Shown here in pieces: positions 21,653 through 61,020 of a stretch of 64,000 bases of DNA; the first letter of the stretch is position 1; each line of letters starts with the position of its first letter. A model generated the notes under the pieces. That model worked only from the letters and a program-made list of their open reading frames with translations, was not told the origin of the DNA and made no database searches. Source of the DNA: Torpedo marmorata (lineage: Eukaryota); assembly GCA_977017645.1 (NCBI GenBank), contig OZ360228.1, positions 82,212,001 through 82,276,000 of the forward strand, read 5' to 3'. The translations under genes and the position numbers were made by a program.

Positions 21653-22766
21653 AACAACCAGGGTCTGATGGGTTCCCTGTTGAATTCGATAAAGTTAGAT
21701 CCTCTCAGCTGATAACAATGTAATAAAAATTATCCCATTCATGCATGTTTGAAGTATCTTCTCAGTCACAATCTGTGGAATGGCAAACAACTATTCACAT
21801 AAGAATCAAACATCCTACTGTATGTATATTTACCTACATTCAATAATGATCATAAAATAAAAACCAAAGTTCTGGCCTCCAGGCTGAACATGACAGCAAA
21901 CAAACTACTCCACAAATGCCAAATTACTGAGGCATTTTGAGGAAGAGATAACAATGAGGTACTCTGCATTAGGACCAGACTTCGTACACTGTATTTTCAC
22001 TCTTCATAAATGGCATTCAAACACTGGAAATTCTTTCTACCCAAGCATATGAAAAGAACACTTGGTGACATATTTAAAACTTACATTAAGAATTTATATT
22101 CCAAACTCTTTTGCTGTGAATTACGAAACCTCCCTACTTTCTACCTTCAAATAAGCATTCCTATTATATATGCTTTGACCATCAAATCTTTGGTAACAGC
22201 ACAACAATAAATGAAGAATGGAAGCTAGTGAGAATAAACTCAAAATAATATTGTGAGTTGGAGATATATACCAGTACCACTGTCTTGTTGTCTGTTATAT
22301 TTGAACATATCAATTACTGAGGGCACTTTTGGGTTACAGAGATAAACAGCAAAACAGACGTACATTAGTCAAGAAATTGAACACATTTGTACGTGTTTTT
22401 AAACACAAATCAAGCATGAAAGGCACTTTACACTTGTTTTAACCAAGCAGTGAATGTTCTCTTATTCATATACTGCCTATTGAGAAATTGAACTGGGCAA
22501 GTATGGCCACAATTGAGATAGACTAAGATTTCTCTGGTGTTACTTGTGCATGTAAAAATGTATCAACATGAATAGTTGTCATTTCTGCCTTAAGTGTTGG
22601 ATATTGGAGCAATAACATGCAACTTATGGCCTTTGTTTTTAACTCTCTCTGAGACAAGGAACAAACCATGTGTATAAGTTGAGTGGTAAGATCTGGGAGG
22701 AATTGATGGGGCTGTGGGAAACATGAAATGTAAATTGGTGCTTGATGGTCAGCTTGGATCAAATGG

Positions 22767-22886
22767 CCTGTTTTCCTGAGGTTTGTCTCTATAGCTCCTG
22801 TTTTCCTGAGGTTTGTCTCTATAGCTCCTGTTTTCCTGAGGTTTGTCTCTATAGCTCCTGTTTTCCTGAGGTTTGTCTCTATAGCT
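22767..22886. repeat. 30-bp tandem repeat, 4 copies
   Basis: (CCTGTTTTCCTGAGGTTTGTCTCTATAGCT)x4. Confidence 0.95.
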
Positions 22887-23356
22887 CTGACATACTTAGG
22901 AAGATGAACCTCATCTAAGGCAAAATGACCAGGTTAATTATCACCCAGTCTATTACTCTGAGCATTCATTCCCTCCACAACTGTCCTACCATGGCTGCAG
23001 TGTGCCTCATCAATCGCAGCTAGTCACGGAGTCTACTCCAACTTCCAAACCCATAATCTCTACCACCAAGAAGGACAAGGACAGTAGGCACACGGAAAGG
23101 ACACCACCTGCAGGTTTCATGATTTGGAAATATATTGCTGGGTATAAATCCTGGAGCTCTGTATCCGCCAGTACTGTGTGAGTTAAAACAGAAAATGCTG
23201 GAAACCCTCCACAGGTCATTTACTTGACACACTAAACACCATTTCTTTCTCCACCCATACTGCCTCACCTGCTGAGTATTCCCAGCTTTGATTTTTATTT
23301 TTGTTTCTGATTTCCAGCATTTTGCAAGCTCTACAGGAATAATTATGACTCTATGA

Positions 23357-23818
23357 TAGTGGTACTCAACCTTTTTTTTTCCACTTACATACCACCTCAA
23401 GTAATCCCTTACTAACCACAGAGCACCTGATGGAGAGCTCCAGGATTTTTCCCAGCAATATATTTCCAAATCATGAAACCTGCAGGTGGTATCCTTTCCG
23501 TGTGCCTACTGTCCTTGTCCTTCTTGGTGGTAGAGATTATGGGTTTGGAAGTTGGAGTAGACTCCGTGACTAGCTGCGATTGATGAGGCACACTGCAGCC
23601 ATGGTAGGACAGTTGTGGAGGGAATGAATGCTCAGAGTAATAGACTGGGTGATAATTAACCTGGTCATTTTGCCTTAGATGAGGTTCATCTTCCTAAGTA
23701 TGTCGGAGCTATAGAGACAAACCTCAGGAAAACAGGAGCTATAGAGACAAACCTCAGGAAAACAGGCCCTTTGATCCAAGGTGGTATGTGAGTGGAAAAA
23801 AAAAGTTGAGAACCACTG
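23357..23818. mobile_element. hAT MITE carrying a 347-bp inverted copy of nearby upstream DNA
   Basis: TIRs TAGTGGTACTCAACC / GTTGAGAACCACTG; 8-bp TSD CTCTATGA at 23349-23356 and 23819-23826; 23434-23780 is the reverse complement of 22753-23160. Confidence 0.92.
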
Positions 23819-26558
23819 CTCTATGACAATAACTTCACCAGCAGTTCACCACCACCTTCTTAAGGGCAAATAACAATGAATGGTAAATACTGGTCATATT
23901 GGTTGATATACTAATTGTATCATTAAAAATGGCTTCCAAATCTGCAAATTGACATTCCTGAATGCTGTTCCCGTGCCTTGTGTTTCCTGCTCTAATATGT
24001 AGAGGTAAAGAAAGTCAAGAAGACGCAAAGATGAAAAAAGACCAGGAACGCAAAAAAAAAGGAGATAAGAGTCTGCAGATGCTGGGATGTGGAGCAAAAA
24101 CAAACTGCCGGAGGAACTCAGCGGATGGACGAGCATCTGTGGGGGAAAGGAATTGCCGGCGTTTCAGGAGGAGACACTGCATCTGGAGGGTATTGATTTT
24201 TGATGCAATAGAAGTATATTGATCGCTAAAGGCCCCATTATTGCTCTACGTGATCGTAGTTTCCTCAAGTCCCGGTTTCATCATCTCTATCCATGCACAC
24301 GATCGTAAAAGTGAAGAATTTACCACGAACCTGTCCCCAAAATGACATAGACCTGTTGTCTATTTAAACTCGTGATCAAAAACGTTTGTGAGACTGACGC
24401 GATTCTATTTATTTTGCATATGAAGGGACGTCTTCACTGTTTTATTGTTCATTTTGAAGTCAGCAACTTAGCCTATGAATTAAAATGCACATTTCGCAAA
24501 TTATTCTTATGGTTCCAAACCTTCCATGGTAAAATTTTAAATGCCCGAACAGACTGAGACTGAGAGGACATGTTTCCCTTGTAAAGTTTTACTTCCCCCA
24601 GTTTCACTGAACGTCTGGTTACCCGGTAAAAAAAATATTCCGTGTACTTCATCCATTGTTTGTATTGTTTTAATCTGTTTATCCTCCTGTCGCCATGAGT
24701 TGCCTTTATGCCTTAGTTTTCGTCCCCCTTCTCCTCCACTGTACTTTCTCTTACTCGGGCTGTTTTTTGCCGCTCCGGAAGAACTCAAATCACATGCGAG
24801 AGGATTCTAAATAAAATACGTGTTATTTACAAGAAAACTGATTAAAAAAGGAGGTCTAACTAGTTTGAGAAAACGGAAAGAGGGAAGTATGCATCTTGTT
24901 TATAGATACGGTATAGGTGCGCTAATCTCCGGTGGCTTGTTGGATGTGCAATTATTACCCATTTCAGCAGGAAGGAAGTGAAATATTACAGATCGGATAA
25001 GTGAGGCTTTATGAACTCTGTGCTAAACTAGCACAGTGACGTACATACTTCCCAACAAATTGCATGAGCTGGGCGGCCACTTATTAGTCGAACTGCCTGA
25101 TAGTTACAGCTCTCTTTCCTCAAATGGAACTAACATGGGAGTTAAGGAGTTTGTGACTTTCCTCAGCGCGTCGTCGATTCAGTCACCTTCAAAGAATTTG
25201 AATTTATTGAACTATGTTGTCCTTGTGTCAAAGCATAGTCATGCAAATGAATTAAATGAGATGATTTTGGAGCAAATGTGTTAAATGTATGGTAAGTTAC
25301 CTTTTAATATTGATTCAGTCATTATTGGTACTCTATGTGGTAAGACTGAGATTGTTATGTATTGCAGTTCTTTGTACCGATCAATAGAAAATGACAGTGG
25401 TTATTTAAGCTGCATATGGATTTCTTATTACTGAAGCCACACGTGCCGCACTCAGCAAAACGCCAGCGCGCTGTTGAATACTGATATCTTTACTTTTACA
25501 AAAGCACATACATATTTTGAACATCGATTGACTGATATTCTAATAGAGTTCCATCTGGTTTAACTTATTTTAGATTTTAGTGCCAGGAGCAGTGTCTGTA
25601 TTCAGTTAAAGGTTACTGCTGATGCTGGGCTCAATTAAGTACGATTAATGTTGTAGTTTTGGAAGTAAAATTGAACTTGTGCTTTTAGAATCTTTTGTTC
25701 GATGCTTAAAACCATGGCTCAACAGAATTTAACGATAAAATATGCAGAATTAAACACGTTTACATTAATACACGTTAGGCAACGTATGCCAGGTTGTTTT
25801 TTCATATACCTATGAATGAGATGAGATGCCTATTTTAGTTGAAAGCCATTTTCATGTAAAGTCGAAAAATAAAAATGTACTGACGTTTATTGTGTTGTAT
25901 ACTTTTGTATCTGCCAAATGTTTACGCACTTGTAATGCTTTCCTTGCGGCTGCATCCATCTTAGAAACATTTCCCTACAGCTTTAAATGAAGGTGGGTGT
26001 TGGTCGACGTTTCGTAAATAAGGTAGAGATGACCGTGCGTGTGATCTGACCCAACGCGCGATACAGTTGTGGGATTTTGTATGAATAATATCGGAATTCC
26101 ATCTTTTATATATGTCATTTAGAATCTTAGAATTGTTACCACAGAGAAAGGTGCCATTCGGCCCATCAAGCCAAGGTAGTTTAACAGTTGTGCAACCGTT
26201 TTCTTATTGAAGCTGTTGATAGTTTGGATTTTTGCAATGAGACTTTTGGGGAAATGGCAAAACTTTTTTTGATGCAGTTTACGAACCTAACCTGATTTTT
26301 TTTTTTAAAAAAATGAACACGCAGAGAACAAAATCTACCCATTGTGGAAAGGGTCGACCGTAAATAACGCACGTTAAAGATATTCCATCCTTCACGGGAT
26401 GAAATAATACTATTCATTGCGGAGCATCTCGAGGTTCATTTCGATGGGTCCAACTCCAGCAGACCTCTGCTGGAATTCCATGTGCCTGTTCTGTTGGGCA
26501 CTGTTAATACTCAGCGCTGTCCCTGTGAGTGCTGCTTCAGTCTCTCTGCACATTGTAT

Positions 26559-26725
26559 TGATTGACAGTTCACCGTGGAAATCACGGCGACGGGCGGTCG
26601 CTGCACAAATGGGGAGAGGCCTTCGCCTGTGATTGGCAGCTGGGGAGGGGCTGGTGCGTGTGATGAAGGGTTGGGGCGGAGCCGGCGCGTGTGATTGGCA
26701 GCGGGGACGGGTCCCGCTGACGTCG
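26559..26725 (+). promoter_or_regulatory. Candidate proximal promoter of BMP4
   Basis: TGATTGACAG 26559-26568; two TGTGATTGGCAGC (inverted CCAAT) at 26628 and 26690; GC box GGGGCGGAGC 26673-26682; CRE-like TGACGTCG 26718-26725; GC/CpG-rich and directly upstream of the conserved 5' UTR exon. Confidence 0.65.
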
Positions 26726-26759
26726 AGGAGAGGAAGCGGAGACGGCTCATTATATTCAA

Positions 26760-26891
26760 ATACTGTTCCAGGAGGGATTCGACAATACGTAGCCGAGCGG
26801 CCAGCTCCAGAGTCCCTGAGCTTTTCAAGAACTTGTCCAAGATCGGCTGTCAAGAATCATGGATTGTTTTCGTCTGCCTTGTTTTCTGTCA
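26760..26891 (+). other. BMP4: BMP4 5' UTR exon (5' boundary uncertain)
   Basis: CAAGATCGGCTGTCAAGAATCATGGA...TGCCTTGTTTTCTGTCA resembles the mammalian BMP4 leader exon as I recall it; donor GTGAGT at 26892; splices to acceptor CAG at 27521-27523. Confidence 0.8.
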
Positions 26892-27530
26892 GTGAGTAGA
26901 CCTTTTTGTACTTTTCTAATGGCTGGGAGGGATTTCATTATCCATCTGTTTGTACACTAACAATGTGTGTGTGTGTTTAACTATTTATTCGATTTCTCCC
27001 TTAGCTTGTACTTGCGATCATTTCCTACATGATTAATTGTAGCTCTCTGTTGGGTGAGACTATGGCTCTTTGCACTTGTGCCTTGGTTGTCAGAAAGCAA
27101 TTAAGGAAATGTTGTGCCAATAGAGCGGAGATAATCAACTTGCTCGATGTGAAAGACGTGAAAGTGAACACAATGAAAGTAAAACTATTTTGACACTAAA
27201 GGAACGTGTACCCCCCCCCCATCCATCTCCACCATTCTCAACAATTATGGGCCGTTCGATAAGATGCCCGTTGCAGGATTTTTTTGGTGTCGCTTCCAAA
27301 AAAGCAGCCTATGATAATTACTAAGATAGTGAAAACACAGAGTAACAGGATGGTGCTATCTGCCTGATTATGGGCTATTTAACTGTAACCGAGAGAGACC
27401 ATGTAATTATACCTCTTCTCCCACTCTCTTTTTCTGCGTCGTGCGCTCTCTCTCTCTGGGGCGTGGATTGAAGATCACCCTTAATTCTCATTTTTTTTTA
27501 TTGTTGCTTGTTTTGCTCTGCAGAGACACC

Positions 27531-27882
27531 ATGATTCCTGGTAACCGAATGCTGATGGTAATTTTATTATGCCAAGTCTTGCTGGGAGGTAATGCTAGTC
27601 TGATACCAGAGGAAGGAAGGAAAAAGTTTGCAGAACAAAACCAGGCTGGTGGACGTCGCTCTCCGCAAAACTATGAACTGCTGCGGGAATTCGAGGCCAC
27701 TTTACTCAATATGTTGGGACTCCACCGGCGCCCACAGCCGAGTAAATCTGCCGTGGTTCCCCAGTACATGCTGGATCTATACAGACTCCAGTCTGGGGAC
27801 GAGGTCACCCATGACATTAGCTTCGAGTATCCCGAGAGACCCACCAGCCGGGCCAACACCGTGAGGAGCTTTCACCATGAAG
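27531..27882 (+). CDS. BMP4: Bone morphogenetic protein 4, coding exon 1 (signal peptide and N-terminal prodomain)
   Basis: [20 protein letters not shown]...[12 protein letters not shown] is the diagnostic BMP4 N-terminus; acceptor ...CTCTGCAG at 27523; phase-1 donor GT at 27883. Confidence 0.97.
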
Positions 27883-28359
27883 GTATTGGACCATCAACCA
27901 CTGTACGAAAAACACAGATTTTTCTTTTTGTTTGAGTGATAATGATAGCAGAACATGGCGGGAGTTTAATATGAAGTGTATACAGGGGTAATTTATTTCA
28001 GTGGGTTTCTGTGCAGCATTATGACCACGGGAGATGAGGTTAATTGCCAATATACTTTAGAACATCTTTCGACCGCGTATATGATCTTAAAATGTAAATA
28101 TATATGTGTGTGTATATAAGTATGTATATTTCGCAAAATATATATACTGTATAAACACACACACGTGTGTTGTGTGTGTCTGTGCGCTCTCATCGCTTTC
28201 GTCCATTGTTTTTTTTTGAGGACGACCAGCTTTGCAAGGCGGGTCTTTGTTGGCCTGCTCTCGGTCTGCTAACAAACGTTAGTTTAGTCCAGGGATATGC
28301 ACACTTTACTTGGGTGAATCGGATTCTAAGGGTTGTCTTTCATTTCTGTTGTGGAACAG

Positions 28360-29198
28360 AACACTTGGAGCTGATGCCAGGGCAAAAGGAAGACACCCAA
28401 CTTCGTTTTGTGTTTAATATCAGCGCGGTGCCCGAGAATGAGGTGCTCTCGTCGGCAGAACTGAGGCTGTATCGAGAACAAATCGACACCGTTTTGAACT
28501 GGAACGAAGGTTTCCATCGCATCAATGTTTATGAAATCATGAGAACCCCCAGCGAGAAGGGCGACCTCATCACCAGACTCCTCGACACCAGACTGGTCCA
28601 CCAGAACAGGACGCGATGGGAGAGCTTCGACGTGAGCCCAGCTGTGCTCAGATGGACCTTGCAGAAACAACCCAACCACGGGCTGGCCGTCGAGGTGATT
28701 CACCTGAACGAAACAAAAAGCCGGCAAGGTATGCACGTGCGGATTAGCAGGTCGCTTCACCAGAGGCACGGCGACTGGTCTCAGTTCAGACCCTTGCTTG
28801 TAACCTTCAGCCACGATGGCAAAGGACATGCTCTGATCCGGAGGGTGAAACGTAGTAGCAAAGGCCAGAAACGCAGGAAGAACAGATCGCACTGCAGGAG
28901 GCACTCTCTCTACGTGGATTTTAGCGACGTGGGCTGGAATGACTGGATAGTGGCACCGCCTGGTTACCAGGCTTTCTACTGTCACGGAGACTGCCCCTTT
29001 CCACTGGCAGATCATCTGAACTCTACTAATCATGCTATCGTGCAAACGCTTGTAAACTCTGTAAATTCCAACATCCCCAAGGCTTGCTGTGTCCCTACAG
29101 AACTCAGTCCCATATCCATGCTCTACTTGGACGAATACGATAAAGTTGTTCTGAAAAACTATCAGGAGATGGTTGTGGAGGGATGTGGGTGCCGCTGA
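28360..29198 (+). CDS. BMP4: Bone morphogenetic protein 4, coding exon 2 (rest of prodomain and mature TGF-beta domain); spliced CDS 1191 nt, 396 aa
   Basis: Acceptor AACAG at 28359; furin sites RISR (28740-28751) and RVKR (28842-28853); 7-cysteine domain [37 protein letters not shown]...[13 protein letters not shown]; stop TGA 29196-29198. Confidence 0.98.
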
Positions 29199-29262
29199 AA
29201 AAAATAATAATTGACTTTTTATAATGTCTGGACACTAATTGTAACAGGCGTTCGCCATTACA

Positions 29263-29368
29263 TTATTTATGACCTATGTGCAAATGTTGACCATATGATC
29301 ATATATTTTGACAAAATATATTTATAACTACATATAAAAGGAAAATAAAATTGAGTCATATTTTAAAC
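29263..29368 (+). promoter_or_regulatory. BMP4 3' UTR AU-rich block and polyadenylation signal
   Basis: AATAAA 29344-29349; ATTTA at 29265 and 29320; palindrome ATATATTTTG-A-CAAAATATAT 29301-29321. Confidence 0.75.
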
Positions 29369-32300
29369 GTAAGAAATTTCTGTACTACGTCTTTGTTAAA
29401 CTGTTTATTAGAATGTATGGAATATATACATAAATATTAAGTGTGTTATTTATTATTTCCCCCTCTGGGATTAAGTACAGTATGCAGAGCTAGAAATCCT
29501 GACAGAATTTTATTGTTTCTTTATTCTCTAAAAGGAAGCGCTTTAAGCGGTGTCATTCTTTTGTTAAGATGCTGATTTGTAAAAGGTGTGAACGGAGATT
29601 AACAGGTGAATATGAAAAAAAGGCAACGTCCAGTTCTTCTGCTAAAACAATTGGTGCAAATGGACGATTAGCCAAAAAAAAAAATCTGATGAATTTCCCG
29701 AAAGAGACGGATCCCGTTGAAACTAAAGATTGTCGAGAAATAAGAAATCTAAATGACTTGATCTGCTTTCCTCTTTTCATACATGATTGTCATTCACTTC
29801 AACGGTGTTTCAGACCCTGAGAAAAGAGTGCCTTGAAACGATCAAAAAAGCACGTTTGGTCGTACCATAAATTACATCCTTGTTTGAAATCATCCCCCTT
29901 CTACCGAAGCAAATGTGAAACCGAATTTATCCCGTGATTTAACTTAAAATTTGTTGAATTCTCCTCCTTTCAGTCACAGCACAGTTGTCACCAGGGCTTA
30001 CTGTATTACGATGTTCACCCTTTCATCTGCCCTCTTCTTTCCCTCCCCCATCCAGTGACTGTAAGAAGTTTTGCCTCCGAGCAATTCATTGTCAAACGAA
30101 TTGAAGGAAGGTAGCGAGAGGGTTAGCAGATGTTAATCAAGGTTGCATGTAGGCTTGATTTTTTTTTGGAGATGTTGAAATGAAGACTGGTTAGGCCCAA
30201 AAGGGATCCAGCAGGCTTAAAACTCAAAAGAAATCTGCAAGAATTGCCTAAGCCTGCGCTCCCTGGAGTGTGCAGGTGGAGAGAGCAGATCAGAGCCTCA
30301 GGCCAAGACATCCATGCTCCGCAATTTACTCTCAACCCTGTTAGTTTTCAAATGTGGCCAACTTGGATAAATCGTTAAAAAGGATTTGATGATTGCATTC
30401 CCCCAGGAAACATTTGTTTTCGTTCCACATAATATCCTAAACTGTACACCATGGGAGGGGAAGGGAATCGACTTTCATGTATGAAATTTTTTGAATCTCA
30501 TTTTCGCCGTTAGCAAAACTTGTTCAGCCGATCTTGCCGGGTCGCCTTGTGCAAGTGACTTTGTTTTCTTTAATGAATAGAAACAACTTAATTTTAAATC
30601 AAGGTTAACGGCGAGACCATTGTCATGTGGACTGAAATTATACGTGTTTTTTAAAGAGCAAAATGTAATTTTAACACTTGTAGATTATTATAAATTTTGC
30701 CGCAGTGTTTAAACTGAGCTCAGATGCTTGGCTTTGATAAAATACTTCAGGAACAGTTAAGTATCGAGTTGGTTTAGTGAAGTGCCCGCTCGCAATCTGG
30801 TTTGGTGTTGCATAAAAATACCAGGAGGCGGAAGACGTCTTTGCTGTGTTTAAATGTTTCTGGTTTCTACCTTCAAAGTTTGTGTGTGGTCTGCTTGTGC
30901 TTTTAAATATAAATTATAAATATTTAATGACAGCCAGTAAACAAGCTAATCATTTTTGTTTGTAGATGAACGGCTCTGGTATGTCTGTTTCCAAGGACAA
31001 TAACCTTTGATTGACGGATTGTTTATTTAGATTTTTAACCCAAAACGCGGTGCAAGTAAGTAATTTGTAGGTCTACTGCTTTTTGAGTAAGTGCTTCACC
31101 ATATCGAAGAGCAACCATCCGAACGCTTTTGTTTAGAATACATGAGTTATTTTCACTGCATTTGGAACCGAATGAGGAGGGTGGATATTGGGGTAGCTGC
31201 CGGGCGCTATGGTTACATACATTTCAATTGCAAATAGAGTTTTATGGAAGCCTTTGTAGTTTCCTCTCGTGATGCTCTTCGGCCATAGTCCCTTCTCCTT
31301 GGTGGCTAACTCAACTCCACATTTATACAATGTACATACACTGTAACCCTCAACATATAATCCAGAAGGTGCGGCGCTAGCGGCAGAGTTGAAAACCCGC
31401 CCTGTTCCAATTTCTCCCGCTGCAAAGCGAACAACCCCTCCTTAAATCTCAAATTTCTCGGACTCGCAGCCTAAATCGGAGTTTCCCACAATCTCCAACG
31501 TCCGGTCTGAGGGAGCTGACCCCTTCTTCTTTCAGCCAGTTGTCTAGGACGCAATGTTTATGCTTCCAAAACGCCAGAAATAAATAATTATCCGAAATCT
31601 CCTTTCCGCCCAACCTTCGTACTATCTCATAAGATAGAATGTCCCGAGGCTAGGACTTGCTGCCTCCCCTTTGATATCAGGCATAACCATGCCAAAGGAA
31701 GAATTTCATTTTGAAGTGGCAATAAGCTGATGGGAGTGCTTTTCAGCTGTTTGACAGTGCAATTACACACATTTCAACTGATACGCTTCATTCAGATAAC
31801 ATCGCCCTACCATTACAAAATCTGGAATGGTAATTGTCTGGTAGCTCATTACCCCAACACTCAATTCTCTGAGCTACAAGGAAGGCAAGCACACATTCAT
31901 TAAAACGCTTCAGGAAATGAAGCTCGGGTTTTCCTACATATGTGCATACCTCTCTAGACATCTTAGCGCCATAAGAAAACGTTTGAAGCTATTAACTGAT
32001 TGTAACATTACACTTCTGTATTTCAGCTATGGCCTTCGCACCAGTCTTATTTTCATCGCGTTGTCTCTATGGTAGTGTGCACACCCAAACCTTATCATCA
32101 GTTTGTAAATAATTTTAGTTTCAAAGTCGTTTCTTTGTTCCAATTCGATAGCATTCAACAAGCTACAACACGTAGAATGTTTGGCTCATTTCAAGCAGAA
32201 TGTAGACTTAAAAGCAAAATAGTTGTATTATCATATATTGAATAGTCTTAATGTGTACACATTTGAAGTTAACCTCGATTGTTTACTTGGTGTTATTTTA

Positions 32301-36705: not shown

Positions 36706-37090
36706 TTAAAAGCACGGAATACCTGAAAATTTCAATGGCTACTATTAACACAAAATTAAAAAGATGACTGTGAATTGTGGAAATTTGTTATAATAAGATG
36801 ATGAAAAACAGCAAAATGTCAAAATCATTACTGGGCCTGTGATTTAAATCCTGGGTCCACCCTTCATCCCTGTATTTCTCATCTAAATGTTCATTCTGAT
36901 CATTAACAGTTAGATGAGAAATACAGGGGTGAAGGGTGGACCCAGGATTTAAATCACAGGCCCAGTAATGATTTTGACATTTTGCTGTTTTTCATCATCG
37001 TATTATAACAAATTTCCACAATTCATAGTCATTTTTTTCATTTTGTGTTAATAGTAGCCATTTAAATTTTCAGGTATTCCGTGCTTTTAA
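36706..37090. repeat. Long near-perfect palindrome: 186-bp arms, 13-nt loop
   Basis: 36706-36891 pairs with 36905-37090; about 7 mismatches by eye. Confidence 0.95.
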
Positions 37091-37163
37091 TCACAGAGCA
37101 CCTACGGCATAGGGATTACTTAAAGTGGTATGTGAGTGGAAAGAAAATGTTTGAAAACCACTG
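37088..37163. mobile_element. Right half of the hAT MITE, fused to the palindrome
   Basis: TAATCACAGAGCACCTACGGCATAGGGATTACTTAAAGTGGTATGTGAGTGG...TTTGAAAACCACTG, same family as 119-493 and 23357-23818. Confidence 0.9.
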
Positions 37164-37259
37164 GTTTAGATGATCAAAAATCATCAGGTTTTAATTGTAA
37201 ACTGTAGAGACACATCATTCATTCACCATCACTTTTCTTGATATCCAATCATTTCTAAA

Positions 37260-38769: not shown

Positions 38770-39497
38770 TACAGGTCTAATTACCACCGGCCTACAGGAC
38801 CAAGCCTCCATTATGATCTTCCACCTTGAACCGACGGCCAACAGGACCGAGCCTCCGACATGAACTCTCACCCTGGCCCCGGCAACCTACAGGACCGAGC
38901 CTCTGACGCGAACTCTCACCCTGACCCCATGGTTAAACATGAAAGTCTGCAGACACCGTGGTTGAAGTAAAAATACAATGCTGAAGAAACTCAGCAGGTC
39001 AAACAGTGTGCTTTATATAGCAAAGTTAAAGATACATAACCGACATTTCGGCTTGAGCCCTTCATCAAGGTGAAGGGCTCAAGCCCGAAACATCGGTTAT
39101 GTATCTTTATCTTTGCTATATAAAGTACACTGTTTGACCTGCTGAGTTTCTTCAGCATTGTGTTTTAATTTCACCCTGCGGCCCACAGGACCGAGCCTCC
39201 GACGGGAACTTTCACACTGGCCCCTGCGGCGCACAGGACCGAGCCTCCGACGGGAACTTTCACACTGGCCCCTGTGGCCCACAGGACCAAGCCTCCGACG
39301 GGAACTTTCACCCTGGCCCCTGCGGCCCACAGGACCGAGCCTCCGACGGGAACTTTCACCCTGGCCCCTGCGGCCCACAGGACCGAGCCTCCTACGGGAA
39401 CTTTCACCCTGGCCCCTGCGGCCGACAGGACCGAGCTTCTGACGGGAACTTTCACCCTGGCCCCTGTGGCCCACAGATCAGAGCCTCCATTGCGAAC
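38770..39497. repeat. 48-bp GC-rich minisatellite split by a Penelope insertion
   Basis: Unit CACAGGACCGAGCCTCCGACGGGAACTTTCACCCTGGCCCCTGCGGCC; about 6.5 homogeneous copies 39170-39497 and about 3 diverged copies before 38935. Confidence 0.92.
38935..39168. mobile_element. Inverted pair of Penelope pseudo-LTR ends
   Basis: Mirror sequence centred on CCCTTCATCAAGG/TGAAGGG at about 39070. Confidence 0.85.
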
Positions 39498-39499
39498 TC

Positions 39500-40165
39500 C
39501 CCCTCCCCCTTCATTTCCCTAACCCTCCCCTCCTTCCCTTGGATCCTTCCTACCCTCCACCTCCTGATCCATCCATCCACCTCCCTCCCCCCCGACATCC
39601 TCCACCTCATTGAACCCCTCTTCAACCCCTGCCTGATCTTCTCGAAGACGGGACGCTCTATCCTCAGTAGCGGCCTCACCTTCATCCCCTTTCACCCACA
39701 CCTCAACGAGTTCTGCACACACCATGATGCCAAACACTTTTCCGTCAGCTCCAACTCCGTGCCCACTTCTACAACCAGGATTCTCCATCCCCCACTACAG
39801 AACCATTCTACTGCTGTAAACCTTCTTCCTCCTCCTGGACACCTCGATCCGGCCTTCTACCTGCTTTGGACTTTTATATTTCCAACTGCCACCGTGACAT
39901 CAACCGTTTTGACTTCACCACTCACCTCACCCATTCGAATCTCACCCCCTCGGAAAACCTTGCCCTCCACTCACTCTGCACTAATCCCAAATTTACCTCC
40001 CCCTGCCCATTCTTCCCTTCTCCCCAACTTTTTAATTCAGGCACCTGCCTGCTTTTTACTCATACTTCGAAGAAGGGCTCAGGCCCAAAACATCGGTTAT
40101 ATATCTTTACCTCCTATGGATGCTGCGAGTTCCTCCAGCATTTCTGTGTTTTCAATTACCACAAT
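39500..40165 (+). mobile_element. Internally deleted Penelope-like element
   Basis: CTCAGTAGCGGCCTCACCTTCATCCCC (LS.GLTFIP), TCGAATCTCACCCCCTCGGAA (SNLTPSE), then pseudo-LTR with decayed hammerhead at 40063-40097. Confidence 0.7.
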
Positions 40166-44123: not shown

Positions 44124-45141
44124 TAAAGGTAAAGGTTCCATTATTGTCAGGTAATACTACATTTAGAATGTAACATACATGAAATTCTTTAATTTTTGTC
44201 TACTGTAAGGCAGACAGAGGGTCGCTACTTTGTCCAGCGCTCCTCACAGAAACCTACAGCTCCTGGTGTTCCTTGGCGGTCTCCCCTCCAAGTACTGATA
44301 GTCCTGTACAGGTGTCTAACCTTTTATCTGGAATTCCAGAAACCTCTGAAAACCAAACTTTTTTTCATGGATGTCATGTGCTCACCAAACATGACACGAC
44401 ATGACCTACACTTAGCTCATGCTTGAAAATCCCGTTTTGTTCCGCGTCAGTAGTTAATGGAACGTCAGGGACGTCGGCCTCCCGGCAGCAGCGAAAACAT
44501 CATACAGGTACGGACGCCCCTGCAACCCCGCCCTGTCCAGCGCCGCCGCAAACCCCCCTTGTCCAACGCCTCTGATTTGGAACGCATGCGTAGATTGCCG
44601 TCGCTGGGGAGGGAGAGAGATTGAAGAGGGAGAGAGAGCGACGGAAATCTGCGCATGCGTTCCAAATCACAACGCAGAAGCGGGGCCAACGTCGGCCTCC
44701 CGGCAGGAGCGGGATCTGCATCGTCCTCCCGGCAGGTCAGGAGCGCTGCCGACGTCGGCCTCCCGGCAGGTCAGGAGTACCTTCGGCGTCGGCCTCCCGG
44801 CAGGTTAGGAGCAGAACCAGTGTCGGCCTCCCGGCAGATCAGAGGCAGAGCTGGCGTCGGCCTCCCGGCATGTCAGGAACGGGACCGGCGTCGGCCTCCC
44901 GGCAGGTCAGAATCTAGGTCAGCTTTCCAAATCACAACGGAGCCGGTGACGTCGGCCTCCCGGGTCGGCAGCAGCGGGGACGTCGGCCTCCCGGCAGCAG
45001 CGGAGACGTTGGCCTCTATAATTCTATAATCCGAAAAAATCTGAATTCCGAAAAGTGTCTGGTCCCAAGGTTTTCGGATAAAAGTTAGGCCCCTGTACCT
45101 GCTTAGCTTCCGAGATCAGACAATCCCAGTCGTATTCAGGC
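44124..45141 (-). mobile_element. 5S rRNA-derived SINE (SINE3-like) with Rex-like tail, split by a MITE
   Basis: Reverse strand GTCTGATCTCGGAAGCTAAGCAGG[TA]CAGGACTATCAGTACTTGGAGGGGAGACCGCCAAGGAACACCAGGAGCTGTAGG is 5S-like (45141-45098 plus 44308-44251); then tail ...GAATTTCATG...ACAATAATGGAA(CCTTTA)n. Confidence 0.85.
44309..45095. mobile_element. Tc1/mariner-type non-autonomous element with internal GC-rich array
   Basis: TIRs CAGGTGTCTAACCTTTTATC / GATAAAAGTTAGGCCCCTG; TA duplicated at 44307-44308 and 45096-45097. Confidence 0.85.
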
Positions 45142-52309: not shown

Positions 52310-53245
52310 GTTGGACTGCCTCCCTTGGGATTATTCTCTCTGTGATTCCCCTGTTCATTCTTCCCTCCTGACCCATTCTTCCACTGACTCCCTGGCACTT
52401 TCCACTGCAACCATTGGAGGTGCAATACCTGTCCCTACAACTTCCCCCTCACCACCATCCAGGGACCTAAACAGCCCATCAGCTGAGGCAGAGATTTGCA
52501 TACACCTCTTCCAACATTGCTGCATTCAGTGCTCTCAATGTGGCCTCCTCAATATTGGTGAGACCAAGCGCAGCCTGGGCAACCGCTTTGTCCTCACAGC
52601 TATCTGGAACTCCTGGTTACCACCTATTTTAATTCCCTTCCCCATGTTTGGCCTTGGCCTCCTTCATTGCGAGGGTGGGGTCAAATGCAAATTTGAAGAA
52701 CGGCACCTCATTATATTCTGCAGCCCAATGGCACGAACATTGAATTTTCCAAGTAATCTGTTCCCCCTCGATCTCTTTATCTCTTCTCCGATTCCACCTA
52801 GGTTCTCTCACACACACCCTTCCTTCCAGCCTTCTGTTACTCAGTTCCTTTCCTCTTCTCCACTATCTCCACCCACAAACCCCTCCCACATATTCCCTTC
52901 CCCATTGTTCTCATCAGGCCGTTATCGCTCCCTTCAATCTCCTTACTTCAGCTCCTTCTCCCTTCTCTCCTCCCTCCTGGCTTCATCTCCCTCCCCTTTT
53001 TCCTTCTTCTGCTTCCACTTATCACTGTCTCTGAACTCCACATCACCTGGCTCCATCTGTCAGTTATCCTTCACCACTCTTTGATCCACCTATCACCCAC
53101 TGACCCCTCCCCTTCTCTTTACTACTGCCTGTCTTCCCTCTTCCTTTCTCAGCCCCGAAGCAGGGTTTCAACTGAAACATCAACTGTCCATTTTCCTCCA
53201 TGGATTCTGGCTGACCCACTGGGTTCCTTCAGCAGTTTATTTTTT
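52310..53245 (+). mobile_element. Old Penelope-like element with GIY-YIG remnant
   Basis: CSQCGLLNIGETKRSLGNRF; pyrimidine-rich tract; decayed pseudo-LTR. Confidence 0.75.
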
Positions 53246-53626
53246 CCATGATCAATTTAGGGCTGATAAACCAGACATTTCCCTTGGTTCTGGAAGGTTT
53301 TTTTCTTCAAAGAGTATACTTTATTCATACAATATACAAATGGCACATGGTATTATTTTCTTTCACTGTACCAAACGTACAGTGTTTACAGTGTGTCCAA
53401 TATGCCAACATCTTACTTCACTAACTTTTCTACATATGTGTATTATATTGTATGAACTAGTAAATCATATTTAATATAATGATGTGACTGGATTATGAAC
53501 TGACATATTGAATAATATACCTCAAAAAGAGACTCTTGTATTAATGACTAAACGCAAAAAGCATTAAAATAAATCAAAATAATCTTGCTCTATTAATGAG
53601 AGGTAAAGTGACGATGAAAATGGAGT

Positions 53627-54352
53627 AAAAACAATGCTGGAGAAACTCAGCAGGTCAAACAGTGTACTTTATGTAGCAAAGATAAAGATACAAAACCAAC
53701 GTTTCAGGCTTTAGCCCTTCATCAAGGTATGAGTAAAATGTCAGCAGGTGCCTGAACAAAATGGGGGGGGGAGGGGCAGGGGGGAGGGGCAGGGGGAGGA
53801 GCACAGTCCCACAGGCAGGAGGTAATAGGTGGATAAGAGAAGGAGGGCAAACCACCCATCCCTCTGTCTTCTTTCCTCCAGCTCTCCACCCCCTTCCTTC
53901 TCCTTTCACAGAGACTCCCCGTTCTCCCTCTCTTCCCCATTCCCTCTGTCTTTTTTCCTCCTGCTCTCCACCCCCTCCCTCTCCTTTTACAGAGACTCCC
54001 CGTTCTCCCTCTCTTCCCCATTCCCTCTGTCTTCTTTCCTCCAGCTCTCCACCCCCTCCCTCTCCTTTTACAGAGCCACCCCCCCTCTCCATGTTTGCTC
54101 ATGTGCCCTCCCTCCCTTTATCTACCTATTTCTCCTGCCTGTGGGACTGTGCTCCTCCCCCTGCCCCTCACCCCCTCCACTTTGTTCAGGCGCCTGCCTA
54201 CATTTTGCTCGTACCTTGATGAAAGGCTCAAGCCGGAAACGTTGTTTATGTATCTTTACGTTTGCTATATAAAGTACACAGTTTGACTTGCTGAGCTTCT
54301 CCAGCATTGTTTTTACTTCAGTCACACTATCTGCAGACTTTTGTGTTTTACT
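53627..54352. mobile_element. Penelope-like insertion made of inverted pseudo-LTRs with an internal ~82-bp tandem repeat
   Basis: 16-bp TSD ACGATGAAAATGGAGT at 53611-53626 and 54353-54368; 53627-53850 mirrors about 54105-54316. Confidence 0.9.
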
Positions 54353-54774
54353 ACGATGAAAATGGAGTTGTCTGTCATTTTAATTCATTATTTTTAAACT
54401 ATTTTTGCGCACATAGTACCATTAGTCAACTGCTAGATAAACAAGTATGGGTACTATGCAAATTTATTTACGCATCAATGAATATAAAACTTTCAATGAC
54501 CAGTTCAATCCAGTTGTGTTTTGGAATAATTCTTTGCATTATATATTTTTTATATTTTTACAATTGGTAAATTACTTTTATTATTATTATTGCTAAAATT
54601 GGGTTTATCGCAAAAAAGTAAGTAGGTTTTATCAGAAGCCAGAAATTCGCCTTGGATAATGTGCCGAAAGAGGGGCTGTCAAATCACCTGCTTCTATATC
54701 GTATACAACTAACTGCAATAAAACTGAATATTATGTATAAAACGATATGATCCCATCCATTTGCTTCATTTCCT

Positions 54775-55052
54775 GGGTGGCACGGTTGGCGTAGCGGTTA
54801 GCGCAACGCCTTTACAGCGCCAGCGATCGGGACCGGGGTTCGAATCCCGCGTTGTCTGCAAGGAGTTTGTACGTTCTCCCTGTGTCTGCGTGGGTTTTTC
54901 CTGGGGGCTCCGGTTTCCTCCCACAGTTCGAAACGTACTGGGGGTGTTGGTTAATGGGGTGTAAATTGGGCGGCATGGACGCGTGGGCCGAAATGGCCTG
55001 TTACCGTGCTGTATGTCTAAATTTAAAAATTTAAATTTATAAATTTTAAAAA
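54775..55052 (+). mobile_element. tRNA-derived V-type (HE1-like) SINE
   Basis: A-box TGGCGTAGCGG, B-box GGTTCGAATCC, V-core, tail. Confidence 0.9.
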
Positions 55053-56584
55053 TCCTAGCCCAGCGACCAGACCACAAGATCTCAATCGCACAATTTTAAA
55101 TGATGAAAAATTACCTCAAAAAGGATACAGAACTATTTATTATGTATATTGCCATAGAGTAGTCAGCTTCTTAGTAAAATTAATGGTGACCCTGCCATGT
55201 TCCTGTGCCTTAAAAAGCTGTTCAAATTTTAGATCCTCCTTTAAGACCTGTAAATGTGTAAATTCAACCATGGGCATGGCCAGTGGTGTTGATGGATCTG
55301 CCCTCCAGCACAATATCTTTAATAATATATTTTTAAATTTTAAATATTTTGCACTGGGCTTTTAAACTTAAGGCAAACTCTAACTGTGTACGTTGTTTAA
55401 ATTCTCAGCAATTAATATCTGTGATTTCCGTAGCCCATCTAGCCTGTTTTGTTTCACTATTTGAAGGAGGATATCTGCATGCACATATCCATGGCCAGTG
55501 TGAGCAAAGAAAGTCAGGAGTATGGAGACATTGCATATGAGTTACATAGTTTTATATAAAAAGAAAGTTATTCATTAAAAATTGTACTTATTGTTAAATT
55601 TGTTGTCAGCTGTTTCAGGCAAATTTCCCCATGGACAAGACAGCAATGATTTCCTTTTATTTTAAAATCACAAATTGGACTTTTTTCAACAATAGCACTA
55701 AGCCTAGTATTGCACTACAATGTCATGAATGTCAACAGATTTAAGCTGCTTCATTGACCTCACATTTAGCTGCTCACGTTACAACTTCAATGCACTTTCA
55801 GGCACCTCATTCAAACCACTTCTGCTAATACTATTCATAATTTCTCCAAGTATTTGCTGCTAGTTTTGTTCTGAAGTGTTGTCATCTAATTAATGGGCCC
55901 CAAAGCTTTTGGCCTTTTGTGATGTGCATTTTCTGTATCCTTCTGGTGTTGTTAGTATGATGATGAATACTTGAACTGCTGTTGAATTATGCATTAGTGT
56001 TCCATTGCCCAGGTATTTTGAGGAAAGGAATGGGGAGAGGTTCACTGGTATTGCGGCACATGATGATGTGATGAGCCAATCAGAATAAGAATGCAAAGGT
56101 GCCTTGAGTTGCTTAACTATTGTTTTCACCAGGTGTTATGCACAAGTTTGAGAACCACTTAGATGTTTATCTAAATGAGCTCCACAATTGAAATATACAG
56201 TACCGCATCTAATGTAGAGCATTCTCATTTAAAAACATTAATTTTCATGTATAAATATGAAATATTTCTTTTATTTATGTAAAGTATTGTTGGGTTACTG
56301 TTAACCACCATTTTATTAAAAGAAAAGTGTTGGTTATCACTTAAAACTGTTTACATTCTTTTATGTGAATGATGAAATGCTACCATACACCTCATTTCTA
56401 GTTCTTTTAAGATTAATAGTGCTTCATAACATAATAGTGCTAACATACAGTAAATAAAGATCCTGTTATCAAATCATATTAAATGTTTATTCATAATGTC
56501 TTTCACGAAGAGATAAGCTGATTAATGCAGTTATTGTTAAGGAATTGAGTCAAATGAATCAGAAAAGATTCTGAAATTTGAAAT

Positions 56585-57130
56585 AAAACCTATAGATGCT
56601 GGAAATCTGAAACAAAAACAGAAAATGCTGAAAAAATCTCAACCAGTCAGGCAGGTTTTCCAATTGAGGCAGAGGTTCATTTGCACACCTTCCAACTTGA
56701 TTCCACTGGATTAAGTTCACGAAGTCACCTCCTCGACATTGGAGAAACCAAGCATAAATCAGGTGAACTTTTGCGGAGCAAAGGCACCCTGTCTGCAATG
56801 ACCACCTCCCGCTTCCAGTTGCATGTGATTTAACTCTATCTTCCACTCCCACACCAGCGTCTGTTCTCAGCCTTTTCCGTTGCTATGGAGAGGCCAAATG
56901 CAGACTAGAAGAACAGCATCTCATATTCTGGTTGAATATGGTAGTGGTACGAGTGTTGAATTTTCCAATTTCAGGTAAACCAAACCCCCTGTGTTCACCT
57001 CCCACACACACTTATCCATTCACCTAGTTTTCTTCTCCCTTTGTTTGCCTTCCTCACCCCATTTACACATCTGGTTCCATCTGCTCATCATTCCCTCCCC
57101 ATCTGGTTCCACCTATCGTCAACCACCCAC
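56585..57130 (+). mobile_element. Old Penelope-like element with short inverted terminus
   Basis: ATTGGAGAAACCAAG (IGETK), CTAGAAGAACAGCATCTCATATTC (LEEQHLIF). Confidence 0.65.
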
Positions 57131-57134
57131 GACC

Positions 57135-57560
57135 CCACACCTTCCTTGAAGTGCCATATGTTGGTCTTCCAGCACAGTGAGAGGTTAGTCAGGGAATGCT
57201 GCCGATTGGCACATTCCAGGTGTCAGGAGTACATGCTGAGTGATGTACTGAGGCTTGTACAGCCAAATGCAAAGGCTGTCAAGGGTCCTTTCATGACTGG
57301 GCATTGCAGAGCTGAGACTGGTGGGGAAGCCCCTCAAACAACTGAAAGGTGCGTCATCTCAGGTGCCAAATGAATGGGAATGATTTCACATATAATAATG
57401 ATTGGCTAAGACTACAGGGTACAGAATCAAAATATATGGACTAAATGGCAATATGAATGTACAGAGCATTTTACACTAAGAATGAAAAAGGACTTTGCAC
57501 TGTTTTCCTTTGTATATATATTTTCATTTATGAATAATGTTTATTTTTGAAATAAAACTT
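57135..57560 (+). mobile_element. Tx1-like LINE 3' end
   Basis: LVFQHSE...ECCRLAHSRCQEYMLSDVLRL resembles a Tx1-clade ORF2 C-terminus; AT-rich tail. Confidence 0.55.
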
Positions 57561-57789
57561 ACGCCTCCACAGACACAGCTTGACTCTCTGAGTTTTCCCA
57601 GTATTTTCTTTTAGGTCAGTCAGCAACCGTGGAAAGAGAAACAATCAAATTTTTTGTTCATTCTGTCATGTGCTTATTACAGACCCAAACAATGTTGACT
57701 GTTTCACTTTCCACAGATGCTGCCTGACTTGCTGAGTTTCTCCAGCAGTTTCTATTTTTATTACAGGAAAGGTTCTGGCTTTGATTCAT

Positions 57790-58200
57790 GGACCCCGTGA
57801 CTGTGAAGAAGGCACACAAACGCCTTTACTTTCTAAGGAGTCTGAGGAGATTTGGCATGTCGACAATAACTATATCAAACTTCTACAGGTACATTGTGGA
57901 AAGTAAACTGGCTGGCTGCATCACAGCCGAGTTTGGTAATTCAAATGCCCAGAAATGCAGAAGGCTGCAGAAGATAGTAAACACAGCCAGGTCCATCACA
58001 AGCTCTGACCTCCCATCCATTGCAGACATCTATGGGGGACGTTGCCTCAAGAAGGCAGCCAACATCATAAAGGACCCCCACCACTTTGGTCAGAACCTCT
58101 TCTGATTCCTTCGAGCAAAAGGTACAGACAACCATCACCATTTGTTTCAAGAATAGTTTCTTTCTAACAGCTATCAGACTCTTGAACCTCCCCTTGGTTC
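57790..58200 (+). mobile_element. Rex1/Babar LINE fragment (third family)
   Basis: KKAHKRLYFLRSLRRFGMS...NFYRYIVESKLAGCITA...KKAANIIKDPHH. Confidence 0.85.
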
Positions 58201-58356
58201 TTGAATCAGAGAGTGCTCCGACAGCACAAAAGGACTGTCTGCAGGATTACATCACTCTTTTTGCACGAGGATTACTGTAAATATTTATTAAATATCTTAT
58301 GAATTTATTGGCTCTTACAGTTTAATTCAATTAGTTTCCTATAATAATTTTTCTTT

Positions 58357-61020
58357 AAGTTCAAAGTTCAAATTTATTGTCAGAGTACAAACATGATATC
58401 ACATACAACCCTCAGATTCTTTATCCTGTGAGCCAGGCAGAATTTCTACTTATTGGTAACTGTAAACTGTACTCAAGAATAAAGATACGTATACAAAAGA
58501 GAGAAATATAAACAAAGACAGAAATGTAAACAAACTAACTGCAATACAGAAAAAAAAATCAGGAGTAAATAATGTGCAAACTAATAGTCTTTAAATGAGT
58601 CTCTGATTGAGTTAGTTGTTGAGGAGTCTGATGGTGGAGGGGTAGCAACTGTTTCTGAATCTGGTGATACCAGTCCTGTGGTACCTATATCTCTTTCCTG
58701 ATGGCAGCAGTGAGAACAGAGCATATCCTGGGTGGTGTGGATCCTTGATGATTGCTGCTGCTCTCCAACGGCAGTGTTCCATGAAGATGTTCTCGATGGT
58801 GGGGAGAGTTTTGCCTGTGATGTACTGGGCTGTTGTCCTCTACCTTTTGCAGGGCTTTCCACTCAGAGATATGGCGCCCCCATGCCAGGCTGTGATGCCG
58901 CCGGTCAGCACACTTTCCACTACACATCTGTAGAAGTTTGCCAAGGTTTCCAATGTCATACCAAACCTCCACAAACTCCTGAGGAAGTAGAGGCACTGAC
59001 GTGCTTTCTTCATGATGATAGTATGTTGGCCCAGGAAAGGTCCTCCGAGATAGTGACTCCCAGGAATTTGCACATTATTTACTCCTGATTTTTTTTTTCT
59101 GTATTGCAGTTAGTTTCCTCACCTTCTCCACCTCTGAACCCACAATGATCACTGGATCATACACTTCGGGTCTTCTCTTCCTAAAGTCCACAATCAGCTC
59201 TTTGGTTTTGGTGACATTGAGTGCGAGGATTTTTTTTGTTTTTTTTAAAATATTTTATTTAAATTTTTAAATCACACAATACACAATTCAAAATATATAG
59301 TTTCCAAAATACAAGTGATATAAATTTCCTCCCCCCACACCCTCCCACCTTTCCCTAACCCCCCCCCCCAACCCCACTAATCTAAAAATAGTAAAAAAAA
59401 AGAAAAAGAAAAGTAGATTAATAGTGAGGAGAGAACCATCTAAAAACTTATTTTATCCTGGAGGTTAAACTCTCCAATAGACCTGATTTCTAGAGATTTC
59501 AAATCCTTAAACCCATAACTCTCATATATGGGCTCCAAATTTTTAAAAAAGAATGATATTTATTACGTAAATTGTAAGTAATTTTTTCCAAAGGAATACA
59601 CGAACGAAGTTCTGCATGCCACCTATCTAAATTTAAATCTAAATCTGATTTCCAAGTAATAGCAATACATTTTTTTGAAACAGCTAAAGCAATTCGCAAA
59701 AATTCTACCTGATACATATTCAATCTATTCCTAATACTAAATTTTCTAATATCTCCAAATAGAAATAACATAGGGTCCATTGGAAACATAACATTCAAAA
59801 CTCTCTCTAAAAAATTCTTAACTTTCAGCCAAAAATCTTGAATCTTTGGACATAACCATGTAGAATGAACAAAAGAACCTACTTCATTCTTACATCTAAA
59901 ACACAAATCCGACAATGTCGGGTTAAATTTCTTTAATTTTTTTGGTGTTAAATATAATTGATGAAAAAAATTATATTGTACTAATCTATATCTAACATTA
60001 ATAACTTTAGTCATACTTAACTTACATAAATCTTCCCAATGTTTTTCAGCTATATTAACATTTAAATCTAATTCCCATTTTAATCTTGATTTATGTAATC
60101 CTACTTTAGGCATTTTTCTCTGAAATAATTTATACATTTGAGAAATAAACTTATTAACATTTGCTTTAGTTATTAATAGTTCTAACTCATTATGCCTTGG
60201 AGCAATCAAATCTTCTCCTAATTTCTCAACCAGAAAAGCTTTAACTTGATAATAAGCTAGCCATGTATTATCTAATACATTAAATTTTTCCTTCAATCTT
60301 TGAAACGTAACAAATCTTCCAGCCTCAAAACAATCTTTAAAATTCTTAATTCCTTTTTGAAACCATGCTTTCAATAATTGATTATTCATAGTAAATAATA
60401 AAAGTGGATTTTGATATAATGGCATATTTAAAGAAATTAATCCTTTCCCGCCTATTTCTTTATCTACCTGTGTCCATATTTCCAACAAATGTTTAATAAT
60501 CGGTGAATTTTTCTTTTTTACTAATAATAATTTAGAATTCCACTTATAGATAATATCCTCTTTATAATTTTCTCCTATATTATTTAATTCTATATTAACC
60601 CAAGCAGAAGTTTTAGCTAAATCAAAAAATTCATTAACAAATTTTAATTGAGCTGCTTTATAATAATATTGAAAATTAGGAAGTTGCAATCCTCCCATCT
60701 CATAATTCCATGTTAACTTATCCATACTCACTCTTGCTAACTTCTCTTTCCATAAAAATTTCCTAATTATAAACTTTAATTCTTTAAAAAAATTTTTTGG
60801 AATTCCAAAAGGAATTGATTGAAAAAGATATTGAATTCTTGGAAAAATATTCATCTTAATACAATTTACTCTCCCCATTAAAGTTATAGGCAAATCTTTA
60901 TTGAGTGCGAGGTTGTTGTTAGTACACCATTCAGCCAAGTTTTCAATCTCCTTCATGTATGCTGACTCATCGCCCCTTTTTATACAGCCCACTACTGAGG
61001 TATCGTCAGCAAATTTACAA
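58357..61020 (-). mobile_element. Rex1/Babar family 1 copy split by an L1 insertion (58357-59228 and 60900-61020)
   Basis: KFADDTSVVGCIKRGDESAY...; KKARQCLYFLRSL; tail (TTTGAAC)n. Confidence 0.88.
59229..60899 (-). mobile_element. Young 5'-truncated L1-clade LINE with intact ORF2 C-terminus
   Basis: 13-bp TSD ATTGAGTGCGAGG at 59216-59228 and 60900-60912; poly-A tail; LPITLMGRVNCIKMNIFPRIQYLFQ, GGLQLPN, CFRC...H...C zinc knuckle; no stop for about 466 codons. Confidence 0.92.

What the first reader, a model, noticed from the sequence alone, without database searches (positions are those of the whole stretch)
22753..59116. Recurrent local inverted templated duplication, twice tied to one MITE family
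Seen: three independent inverted copies of DNA lying less than 1.1 kb upstream, of 347 bp, 186 bp and about 50 bp, with short (about 3-bp) junction microhomologies. Two are joined to the central CACAGAGCACC region of the same ~130-bp palindromic hAT MITE. Both solo copies of that MITE recognised in this window are rearranged this way, and the third occurrence is an inverted composite. Inference: this MITE family may systematically generate palindromes and cargo capture, through transposase breaks or cleavage of its hairpin centre followed by fold-back or polymerase-theta-type synthesis. This is the best candidate for an undescribed process in the window, but the sample is tiny.
Basis: partly seen in the sequence, partly recalled or inferred. 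Interest (0 to 1): 0.7.

Follow-up and report, generated by a model that had tools for sequence, protein, structure and literature searches.

The report
Hairpin transposon breaking at its tip
Thousands of copies of a small, near-perfectly self-complementary jumping DNA are scarred at their exact midpoint, about three in ten having lost one whole half, likely because the DNA folds into a hairpin and snaps there; the inverted duplications first noticed are real but only a rare repair product.

Summary
The three inverted copies exist, but systematic inverted duplication at this MITE is not supported: 0 of 144 unbiased copies carry one within 1.5 kb, against a background of about 4-5 per Mb. The family is a Buster-type hAT MITE with two forms. 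Form B (161 bp, near-perfect hairpin, window site 1) is rearranged at its tip: 23 of 79 copies lost one arm there, against 4 breaks in the remaining 70 bp. Form A (B minus 29 central bases, site 2) shows 1 of 65. A genome-wide pattern test gives about 17-fold more junctions at the tip than mid-arm. Outcomes are mostly one-arm and central deletions with microhomology, some insertions; flank-derived inverted copies occur at 2 of 42 tip-broken loci. The 'inverted composite' is a mobile family of its own, and the 50-bp copy involves no MITE. Site 1 predates an ~8% species split, yet its arms differ 1.4%, so they were homogenised later. Best reading: palindrome centre-break with microhomology end joining, a known process, here in thousands of transposon copies with a built-in control. 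The scan's earlier notes held no such finding.

The parts
22753..23160 (+). Source of the site-1 copy; holds four 30-bp tandem units (22767-22886)
   Evidence: polarity inferred from a repeat tail that runs on upstream of 22753 (tail motif recalled)
23161..23229 (+). Source segment that is part of the insert in organism B but absent from the window's insert
   Evidence: table 8, records 9 and 15
23349..23356 (+). Left 8-bp target-site duplication CTCTATGA
23357..23433 (+). Left arm of a form-B MITE, ending about 4 bases before the hairpin loop
23434..23780 (-). 347-bp inverted templated copy replacing about 43 bp of the MITE centre and inner right arm
   Evidence: 43 bp by comparison with the B reference
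23778..23818 (+). Outer right arm of the form-B MITE (AAG microhomology 23778-23780)
23819..23826 (+). Right target-site duplication CTCTATGA
36706..36894 (+). Original arm of the site-2 fold-back palindrome
   Evidence: continuous with left flank in organism B (records 9 and 17)
36902..37090 (-). Inverted copy; starts with GTTAGAT (36909-36915), likely the left target-site duplication less one T
   Evidence: TSD reading is inference
37088..37163 (+). Loop and right arm of a form-A MITE; left arm lost
37164..37171 (+). Right target-site duplication GTTTAGAT
119..493 (.). 375-bp composite: two inverted form-A-type units around a fixed 114-bp cargo; a mobile family
58532..58580 (+). Source of the 50-bp copy (site 3), in a LINE-like repeat; unrelated to the MITE
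59067..59116 (-). 50-bp inverted templated insertion absent from two other window copies of the same repeat

Best explanation
The 161-bp form of this hAT MITE is a near-perfect palindrome whose copies are rearranged at the midpoint far more often than anywhere else in the element, likely because it folds into a hairpin or cruciform that is cut at the tip and then likely repaired by microhomology-mediated end joining. Shown: palindromic anatomy, clustering of junctions at the tip, loss of one arm as the commonest large outcome, short microhomologies, and near-absence of this in the centre-deleted 132-bp form. Inferred: extrusion in the germ line, a two-ended break at the tip, resection of one end and alt-EJ (polymerase-theta-like) joining. 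In a small minority of repairs the broken end would copy nearby DNA in reverse before joining; site 1 is such a case. Site 2 is likely a snap-back from the left target-site duplication that rejoined in the form-A loop. Site 3 is background templated insertion.
For: B reference folds as one 79-bp stem with a 3-nt loop, -88.4 kcal/mol; A -48.7 with an open centre. Unbiased sample in genome order: 23 of 79 independent B elements end 1-20 bases past the anchor (median 10; loop at 9-11) with no right arm within 170 bp; 4 breaks in the other 70 bp (P=6e-12). A: 1 of 65 (Fisher P=3e-6). Genome-wide: 25 of 2,798 tip anchors pass a four-base non-consensus filter of pass rate 1/16 (23 of the 25 rearranged on inspection) against 4 of 5,158 mid-arm anchors at pass rate 0.094: about 14% against 0.8%. 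Host-repeat sizing gave an estimate for 10 of 42 loci; 8 lost under 100 bp of flank. Microhomology of 2 bp or more in 9 of 16 internal deletions against 236 of 1,365 random (P=5e-4). Inverted flank copies at L246 and L248. Central deletion variants also appear in independent short-read contigs (tables 5 and 5c). Centre-located breakpoints and central deletions are reported for human PATRRs (PMC3197554, passages); fold-back inverted duplications at breaks in yeast (PMC11724301, abstract).
Against: No break or extrusion was observed; all is read from scars. B is about twice as diverged as A (4-5% against 2-2.5%), which explains part, not all, of a 19-fold gap. For 32 of 42 broken loci the missing length could not be sized, so insertions longer than 5 kb or inversions are not excluded; L189, L256 and L274 are insertions, and two estimates were large (L186, L313). 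The unbiased sample comes from one contig and needs an exact 25- or 27-mer next to the centre. Mutations shared by both arms of intact copies were not significantly enriched (3 against 1.1, P=0.08). Best-fit placement of deletions may inflate microhomology. Site 2 is in the stable form and starts at the element's end, which a tip break does not explain simply.
Confidence: 0.7

Rival explanations
1. Transposase activity makes the scars: the centre holds Buster-like target sites, so elements insert there and re-excise, or single-end cleavage and abortive gap repair fill the element with nearby DNA.
For: Nested hAT-like insertions at the centre in L126, L129, L143, L256 and L278. Site 1 keeps both ends and its TSD with filler between. 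Site 2 likely starts at the left TSD.
Against: Form A keeps one such target site and has 1 of 65 half-elements. Half-element junctions lie at the tip, not at the ends where hAT enzymes cut (established knowledge). Most half-elements show no remnant of a nested element.
Confidence: 0.12
2. Replication template switching without a break: the fork stalls at the folded element and the nascent strand jumps by microhomology.
For: Site 2 fits well: one junction likely at the hairpin base, the other in the loop. Arm homogenisation at site 1. Cargo duplicated in reverse beyond an arm in L006 and L049.
Against: Stalling predicts junctions at the base of the stem and removal of the whole hairpin; retained arms end at the tip. 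Whole-element losses are invisible to my anchors, so this route may run in parallel unseen.
Confidence: 0.1
3. One reading: the family systematically produces flank-derived inverted duplications and cargo capture.
For: Two of two solo copies in the window; L246 and L248 among enriched loci; 2 of 42 at broken tips is far above a chance of roughly 0.04% per junction computed from 5 events per Mb.
Against: 0 of 144 unbiased elements; 0 of 29 A loci selected for a broken centre; 0 of 8 A loci picked by eye from 100 listed for a disturbed loop; 0 local events in 40 kb beside the window.
Confidence: 0.04
4. Half-elements are sequencing or assembly artefacts at hairpins.
For: Perfect hairpins trouble sequencing (general knowledge); only contigs, no raw reads, were available.
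Against: Window arms differ by 1.4% and 5.5%, unlike chimeras; a contig of another organism spans the site-1 left junction (X1 record 6) and another spans the whole element (X2 record 9); junctions are diverse and include insertions.
Confidence: 0.04

Closest known systems
Centre-break instability of palindromes: human PATRR11/22 (PMC3197554, passages read); centre-break mechanism of Cunningham et al. 2003 (seen only as a citation in PMC3300023 and PMC4412965; not held, content recalled)
   Same: Near-perfect palindrome, junctions at the centre, central deletions that leave an asymmetric form.
   Different: 161 bp rather than 450-590 bp, centre not AT-rich, a transposon in thousands of copies, commonest large outcome is loss of one arm; translocations not tested.
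Alt-EJ / SD-MMEJ / polymerase-theta repair with templated and fold-back insertions (PMC11724301 abstract; PMC2943611 and PMC5728401 search listings only)
   Same: Short microhomology, deletions of tens of bases, minority of inverted templated copies.
   Different: Copies here are 50-347 bp against mostly 5-34 bp in the yeast study; enzyme unknown.
Buster-family hAT MITEs such as Drosophila Mar (PMC3517528, passages)
   Same: 8-bp TSD with TA at positions 4-5, short terminal inverted repeats, no coding capacity.
   Different: Whole element palindromic; no autonomous partner found here.
Ds formation by abortive gap repair and Pack-type elements (recalled; one search listed one unrelated review)
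   Same: Intact ends and TSD around captured local DNA at site 1.
   Different: No second copy of the site-1 cargo element in 1.93 Mb examined; junction at the hairpin tip.

Membership tests
Buster-type hAT MITE | 8-bp target-site duplication | tested here: met
   37 of 49 B elements with both ends match at 6 or more of 8; exact at site 1
Buster-type hAT MITE | nnnTAnnn target consensus | tested here: met
   T at position 4 in 71 of 77, A at position 5 in 67 of 77; consensus from PMC3517528
Buster-type hAT MITE | Terminal inverted repeats, high copy number, non-coding | tested here: met
   5,335 and 24,004 exact motif hits; folds
Buster-type hAT MITE | Autonomous Buster transposase with the same ends | tested here: inconclusive
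   Only two long pairs inspected (L283, L299); both are composites split by other repeats; no transposase search run
PATRR | Near-perfect palindrome with centre-located breakpoints | tested here: met
PATRR | Several hundred bp with AT-rich centre | tested here: not met
   161 bp, centre not AT-rich; so it works like a PATRR but is not one
PATRR | Cruciform extrusion and recurrent translocation | not testable with these tools
   needs bench work or population junction data
Polymerase-theta-mediated end joining products | Junction microhomology above chance | tested here: met
   9 of 16 against 17%
Polymerase-theta-mediated end joining products | Minority of locally templated insertions | tested here: met
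   2 of 42 plus site 1
Polymerase-theta-mediated end joining products | Dependence on POLQ | not testable with these tools
   needs a knockout system
Pack-type cargo-carrying transposon (site 1) | Cargo element has transposed | tested here: inconclusive
   No other copy in 1.93 Mb; not searched genome-wide. Met for the 375-bp composite

The most novel reading that the evidence does not exclude
A transposon's own perfect hairpin acts as a germ-line fragile site at several thousand loci; the damage favoured a centre-deleted, stable derivative that then out-amplified its parent, and a few per cent of tip breaks capture inverted local DNA between intact transposon ends, whose arms are then kept alike by conversion across species splits.
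Probability: 0.35. Interest if true: 0.7.

Novelty: new variant of a known kind. Interest (0 to 1): 0.5.

Why it matters
Palindrome centre-break is known from a few human loci and engineered constructs. Here one sequence sits at thousands of independent sites beside a natural control that differs by a 29-bp central deletion, so break position, deletion size, microhomology and the share of templated insertions can be measured at scale in a vertebrate germ line. It suggests hairpin stability limits MITE design, and warns that arm identity does not date inverted duplications (site 1).

Tried and rejected
Composite at 119-493 as a local rearrangement: rejected. L047 and L259 as templated duplications: rejected, they are a composite split by a nested element and two separate insertions. 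Inverted matches of 72-82% near L185, L186, L210, L251: repeat-family matches away from the junction. Regional hotspot: 0 local events in 40 kb beside the window (small sample). Arm-shared mutations in intact B copies: not significant. Rfam on the window: 0 hits, so a hammerhead-like reading of 38960-39176 stays a recalled motif. Pfam on one frame at site 3: 0 hits; the LINE label is recalled. Organism B at site 2: one arm and the right flank are laid, the second arm is uncovered, no contig bridges, so inconclusive; absence of a source copy for site 1 in organism B is likewise only a hole in cover. Cargo script stopped after 6 of 13 loci and was not rerun for L148, L166, L129, L179 and L163. 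Literature searches for a prior report on palindromic MITEs broken at the centre listed none; the library lacks most subscription papers and no supplements were read. Twenty further form-A regions were not obtained, so A stays at 65.
Full report
Observation. All three inverted copies are present. Site 1: a MITE at 23357-23818 with an exact 8-bp TSD holds a 347-bp inverted copy of 22753-23160; AAG is shared at the right junction, nothing at the left. Site 2: a fold-back palindrome at 36706-37090 joins through TAA to the loop and right arm of a MITE. Site 3: a 50-bp inverted copy inside a LINE-like repeat (label recalled; Pfam on one frame was blank), with no MITE. The window lies in a 6.2-Gb assembly, G000 contig C40.

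The composite. The 30 best hits fetched for 364-493 all carry the same internal flank at unrelated sites. The 375-bp composite is a mobile family, not a third local event.

Two forms. Form B is 161 bp and folds as one 79-bp stem with a 3-nt loop (-88.4 kcal/mol); form A is 132 bp (-48.7). By alignment of the two references A equals B less 29 central bases bounded by AGG; one sampled copy, L196, shows a near-identical deletion. That A descends from B is inferred from this and from lower divergence (2-2.5% against 4-5%). TSDs are 8 bp with TA at positions 4-5 (71 and 67 of 77), the Buster consensus (PMC3517528, passages). Site 1 is B, site 2 is A.

I took pattern hits in genome order on contig C1 and fetched flanks: 3 kb for 60 loci and 10 kb for 107. 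Eight loci were dropped as duplicates or second arms, 12 as extra copies of one insertion carried in a larger repeat, and 3 as the other form (L110, L181, L048), leaving 79 B and 65 A. Inverted self-matches of at least 30 bp, 90% identity, within 1.5 kb and not explained by repeat families numbered 6 in 1.25 Mb, none within 10 bp of a MITE; without masking, 4 in 1.07 Mb. So 0 of 144 elements, upper bound 2.5%. The filter removes true local events inside young repeats, so background is a lower bound. Three events in the window against about 0.3 expected is a rare draw, plausible among very many windows scanned. Enriched A sets gave 0 of 29 and 0 of 8.

What the family does show. In 23 of 79 B elements homology stops 1-20 bases past the anchor, median 10, with the loop at 9-11, and the other arm is missing; 4 break in the remaining 70 bp (P=6e-12). 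By eye, roughly 27 more have central indels (some recurrent, possibly transposed variants) and roughly 27 are intact at the centre. A shows 1 half-element in 65 (P=3e-6) and one nested insertion. Because intact copies offer two anchors and half-elements one, 29% is likely an underestimate. Genome-wide counts agree: 25 of 2,798 at the tip (filter pass 1/16) against 4 of 5,158 mid-arm (pass 0.094, three of them a 2-base slip), about 17-fold. Breaks in the A loop are rare: 282 of 24,004 passed a looser filter and nearly all of the 100 listed were 2-3-base deletions.

Repair products. Of 42 broken loci analysed, 10 could be sized from a host repeat; 8 lost under 100 bp of flank and 2 gave large values from few third copies. 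L245 and L226 keep the right TSD, so lost only the arm. Insertions at the tip include a poly-A retroelement with its own duplication (L189), nested hAT-like elements (L126, L129, L256) and a 770-bp repeat fragment with no duplication between intact MITE TSDs (L274). Internal deletions show 2 bp or more of microhomology in 9 of 16 (five copies of one 10-bp deletion counted once) against 17% random. Among 42 tip-broken B loci with 10-kb context (23 unbiased, 19 enriched), two carry an inverted copy of local DNA: L246 (145 bp, 92%, source 4.6 kb away, no other hit in the 1.93 Mb held) and L248 (arm plus 83 bp of flank, 92.5%, 1.6 kb away). Both are in the enriched set, and both could be ends of inversions. 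Thus about 5% of breaks (95% interval 0.6-16%), or 1-2% of B copies.

History of site 1. In runs X2 and X5 (organism B, one sample, about 8% diverged) one contig reads left flank and left arm, 17 bases, the inverted segment extended to 23229, 29 bases, right end and right flank (table 8). The insert therefore predates that split and later lost 69 bp at its tip-side junction. The window's two arms differ at about 5 of 350 bases where about 26 would be expected (P=3e-7), and both contain the 30-bp duplication that, by length, organism B's insert seems to lack. The arms were homogenised or recopied later. This rests on one contig of one sample. Run X1 (organism A, 1-2% diverged) has a contig across the left junction and the segment at twice neighbouring depth.

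Site 2. The second arm begins with GTTAGAT, one T short of the right TSD, facing a matching stretch 23 bases upstream. Likely the end at the left TSD snapped back, copied about 180 bases and rejoined in the loop, losing only the left arm. This fits a resected break, a stalled fork or a single-end transposase cut; I cannot separate them. Related runs were inconclusive.

Mechanism. Most likely (0.7): extrusion of the B palindrome, cutting at the tip, one-sided resection and microhomology joining, with templated synthesis as a minor branch. Only scars were observed. Rivals: transposase (0.12), template switching (0.10), systematic duplication (0.04), artefact (0.04).

Comparison. Human PATRRs break at their centre and carry central deletions that alter translocation rate (PMC3197554, passages); this element works like them but fails their size and AT-rich criteria. 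Fold-back inverted duplications at breaks are described in yeast (PMC11724301, abstract). The centre-break paper itself was not available. Six searches listed no report of a MITE family broken at its hairpin tip; coverage is partial. The scan's earlier notes held no finding with all search words.

Verdict. New variant of a known kind; interest 0.5.

Noticed in passing
window 38960-39176: Palindrome (about 90-92%) in an abundant repeat with a hammerhead-like motif at its centre, perhaps Penelope-derived (recalled); Rfam gave no hit. Related inverted pair at 53621-54320.
   Followed up: partly
window 22767-22886: Four exact 30-bp tandem units in the source against two in the inverted copy; likely one in organism B.
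   Followed up: partly
L006:1249-1883 and L049:1214-1691 (oriented): Higher-order composites in which the 114-bp cargo is repeated in reverse beyond a central MITE unit; possible arm-primed duplication or nested composites.
   Followed up: partly
L090, L099, L103, L104, L108, L176, L184, L192, L221-L223, L228, L230: One B insertion with an altered centre amplified as part of a larger repeat (13 of 93 sampled loci).
   Followed up: no
L096, L100, L178: Identical 66-bp internal deletion derivative at three sites: a minimal form that may itself transpose.
   Followed up: no
L325:2854-3858 and 6251-7251: Two copies of a roughly 1-kb structure with 346-bp inverted arms (94-95%) just downstream of the window.
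   Followed up: no
L126, L129, L143, L256, L278: hAT-like elements nested at the MITE centre, which resembles their own target consensus.
   Followed up: partly
window 39174-39509 and 44657-45004: Tandem arrays of 48-bp and 34-bp GC-rich units.
   Followed up: no
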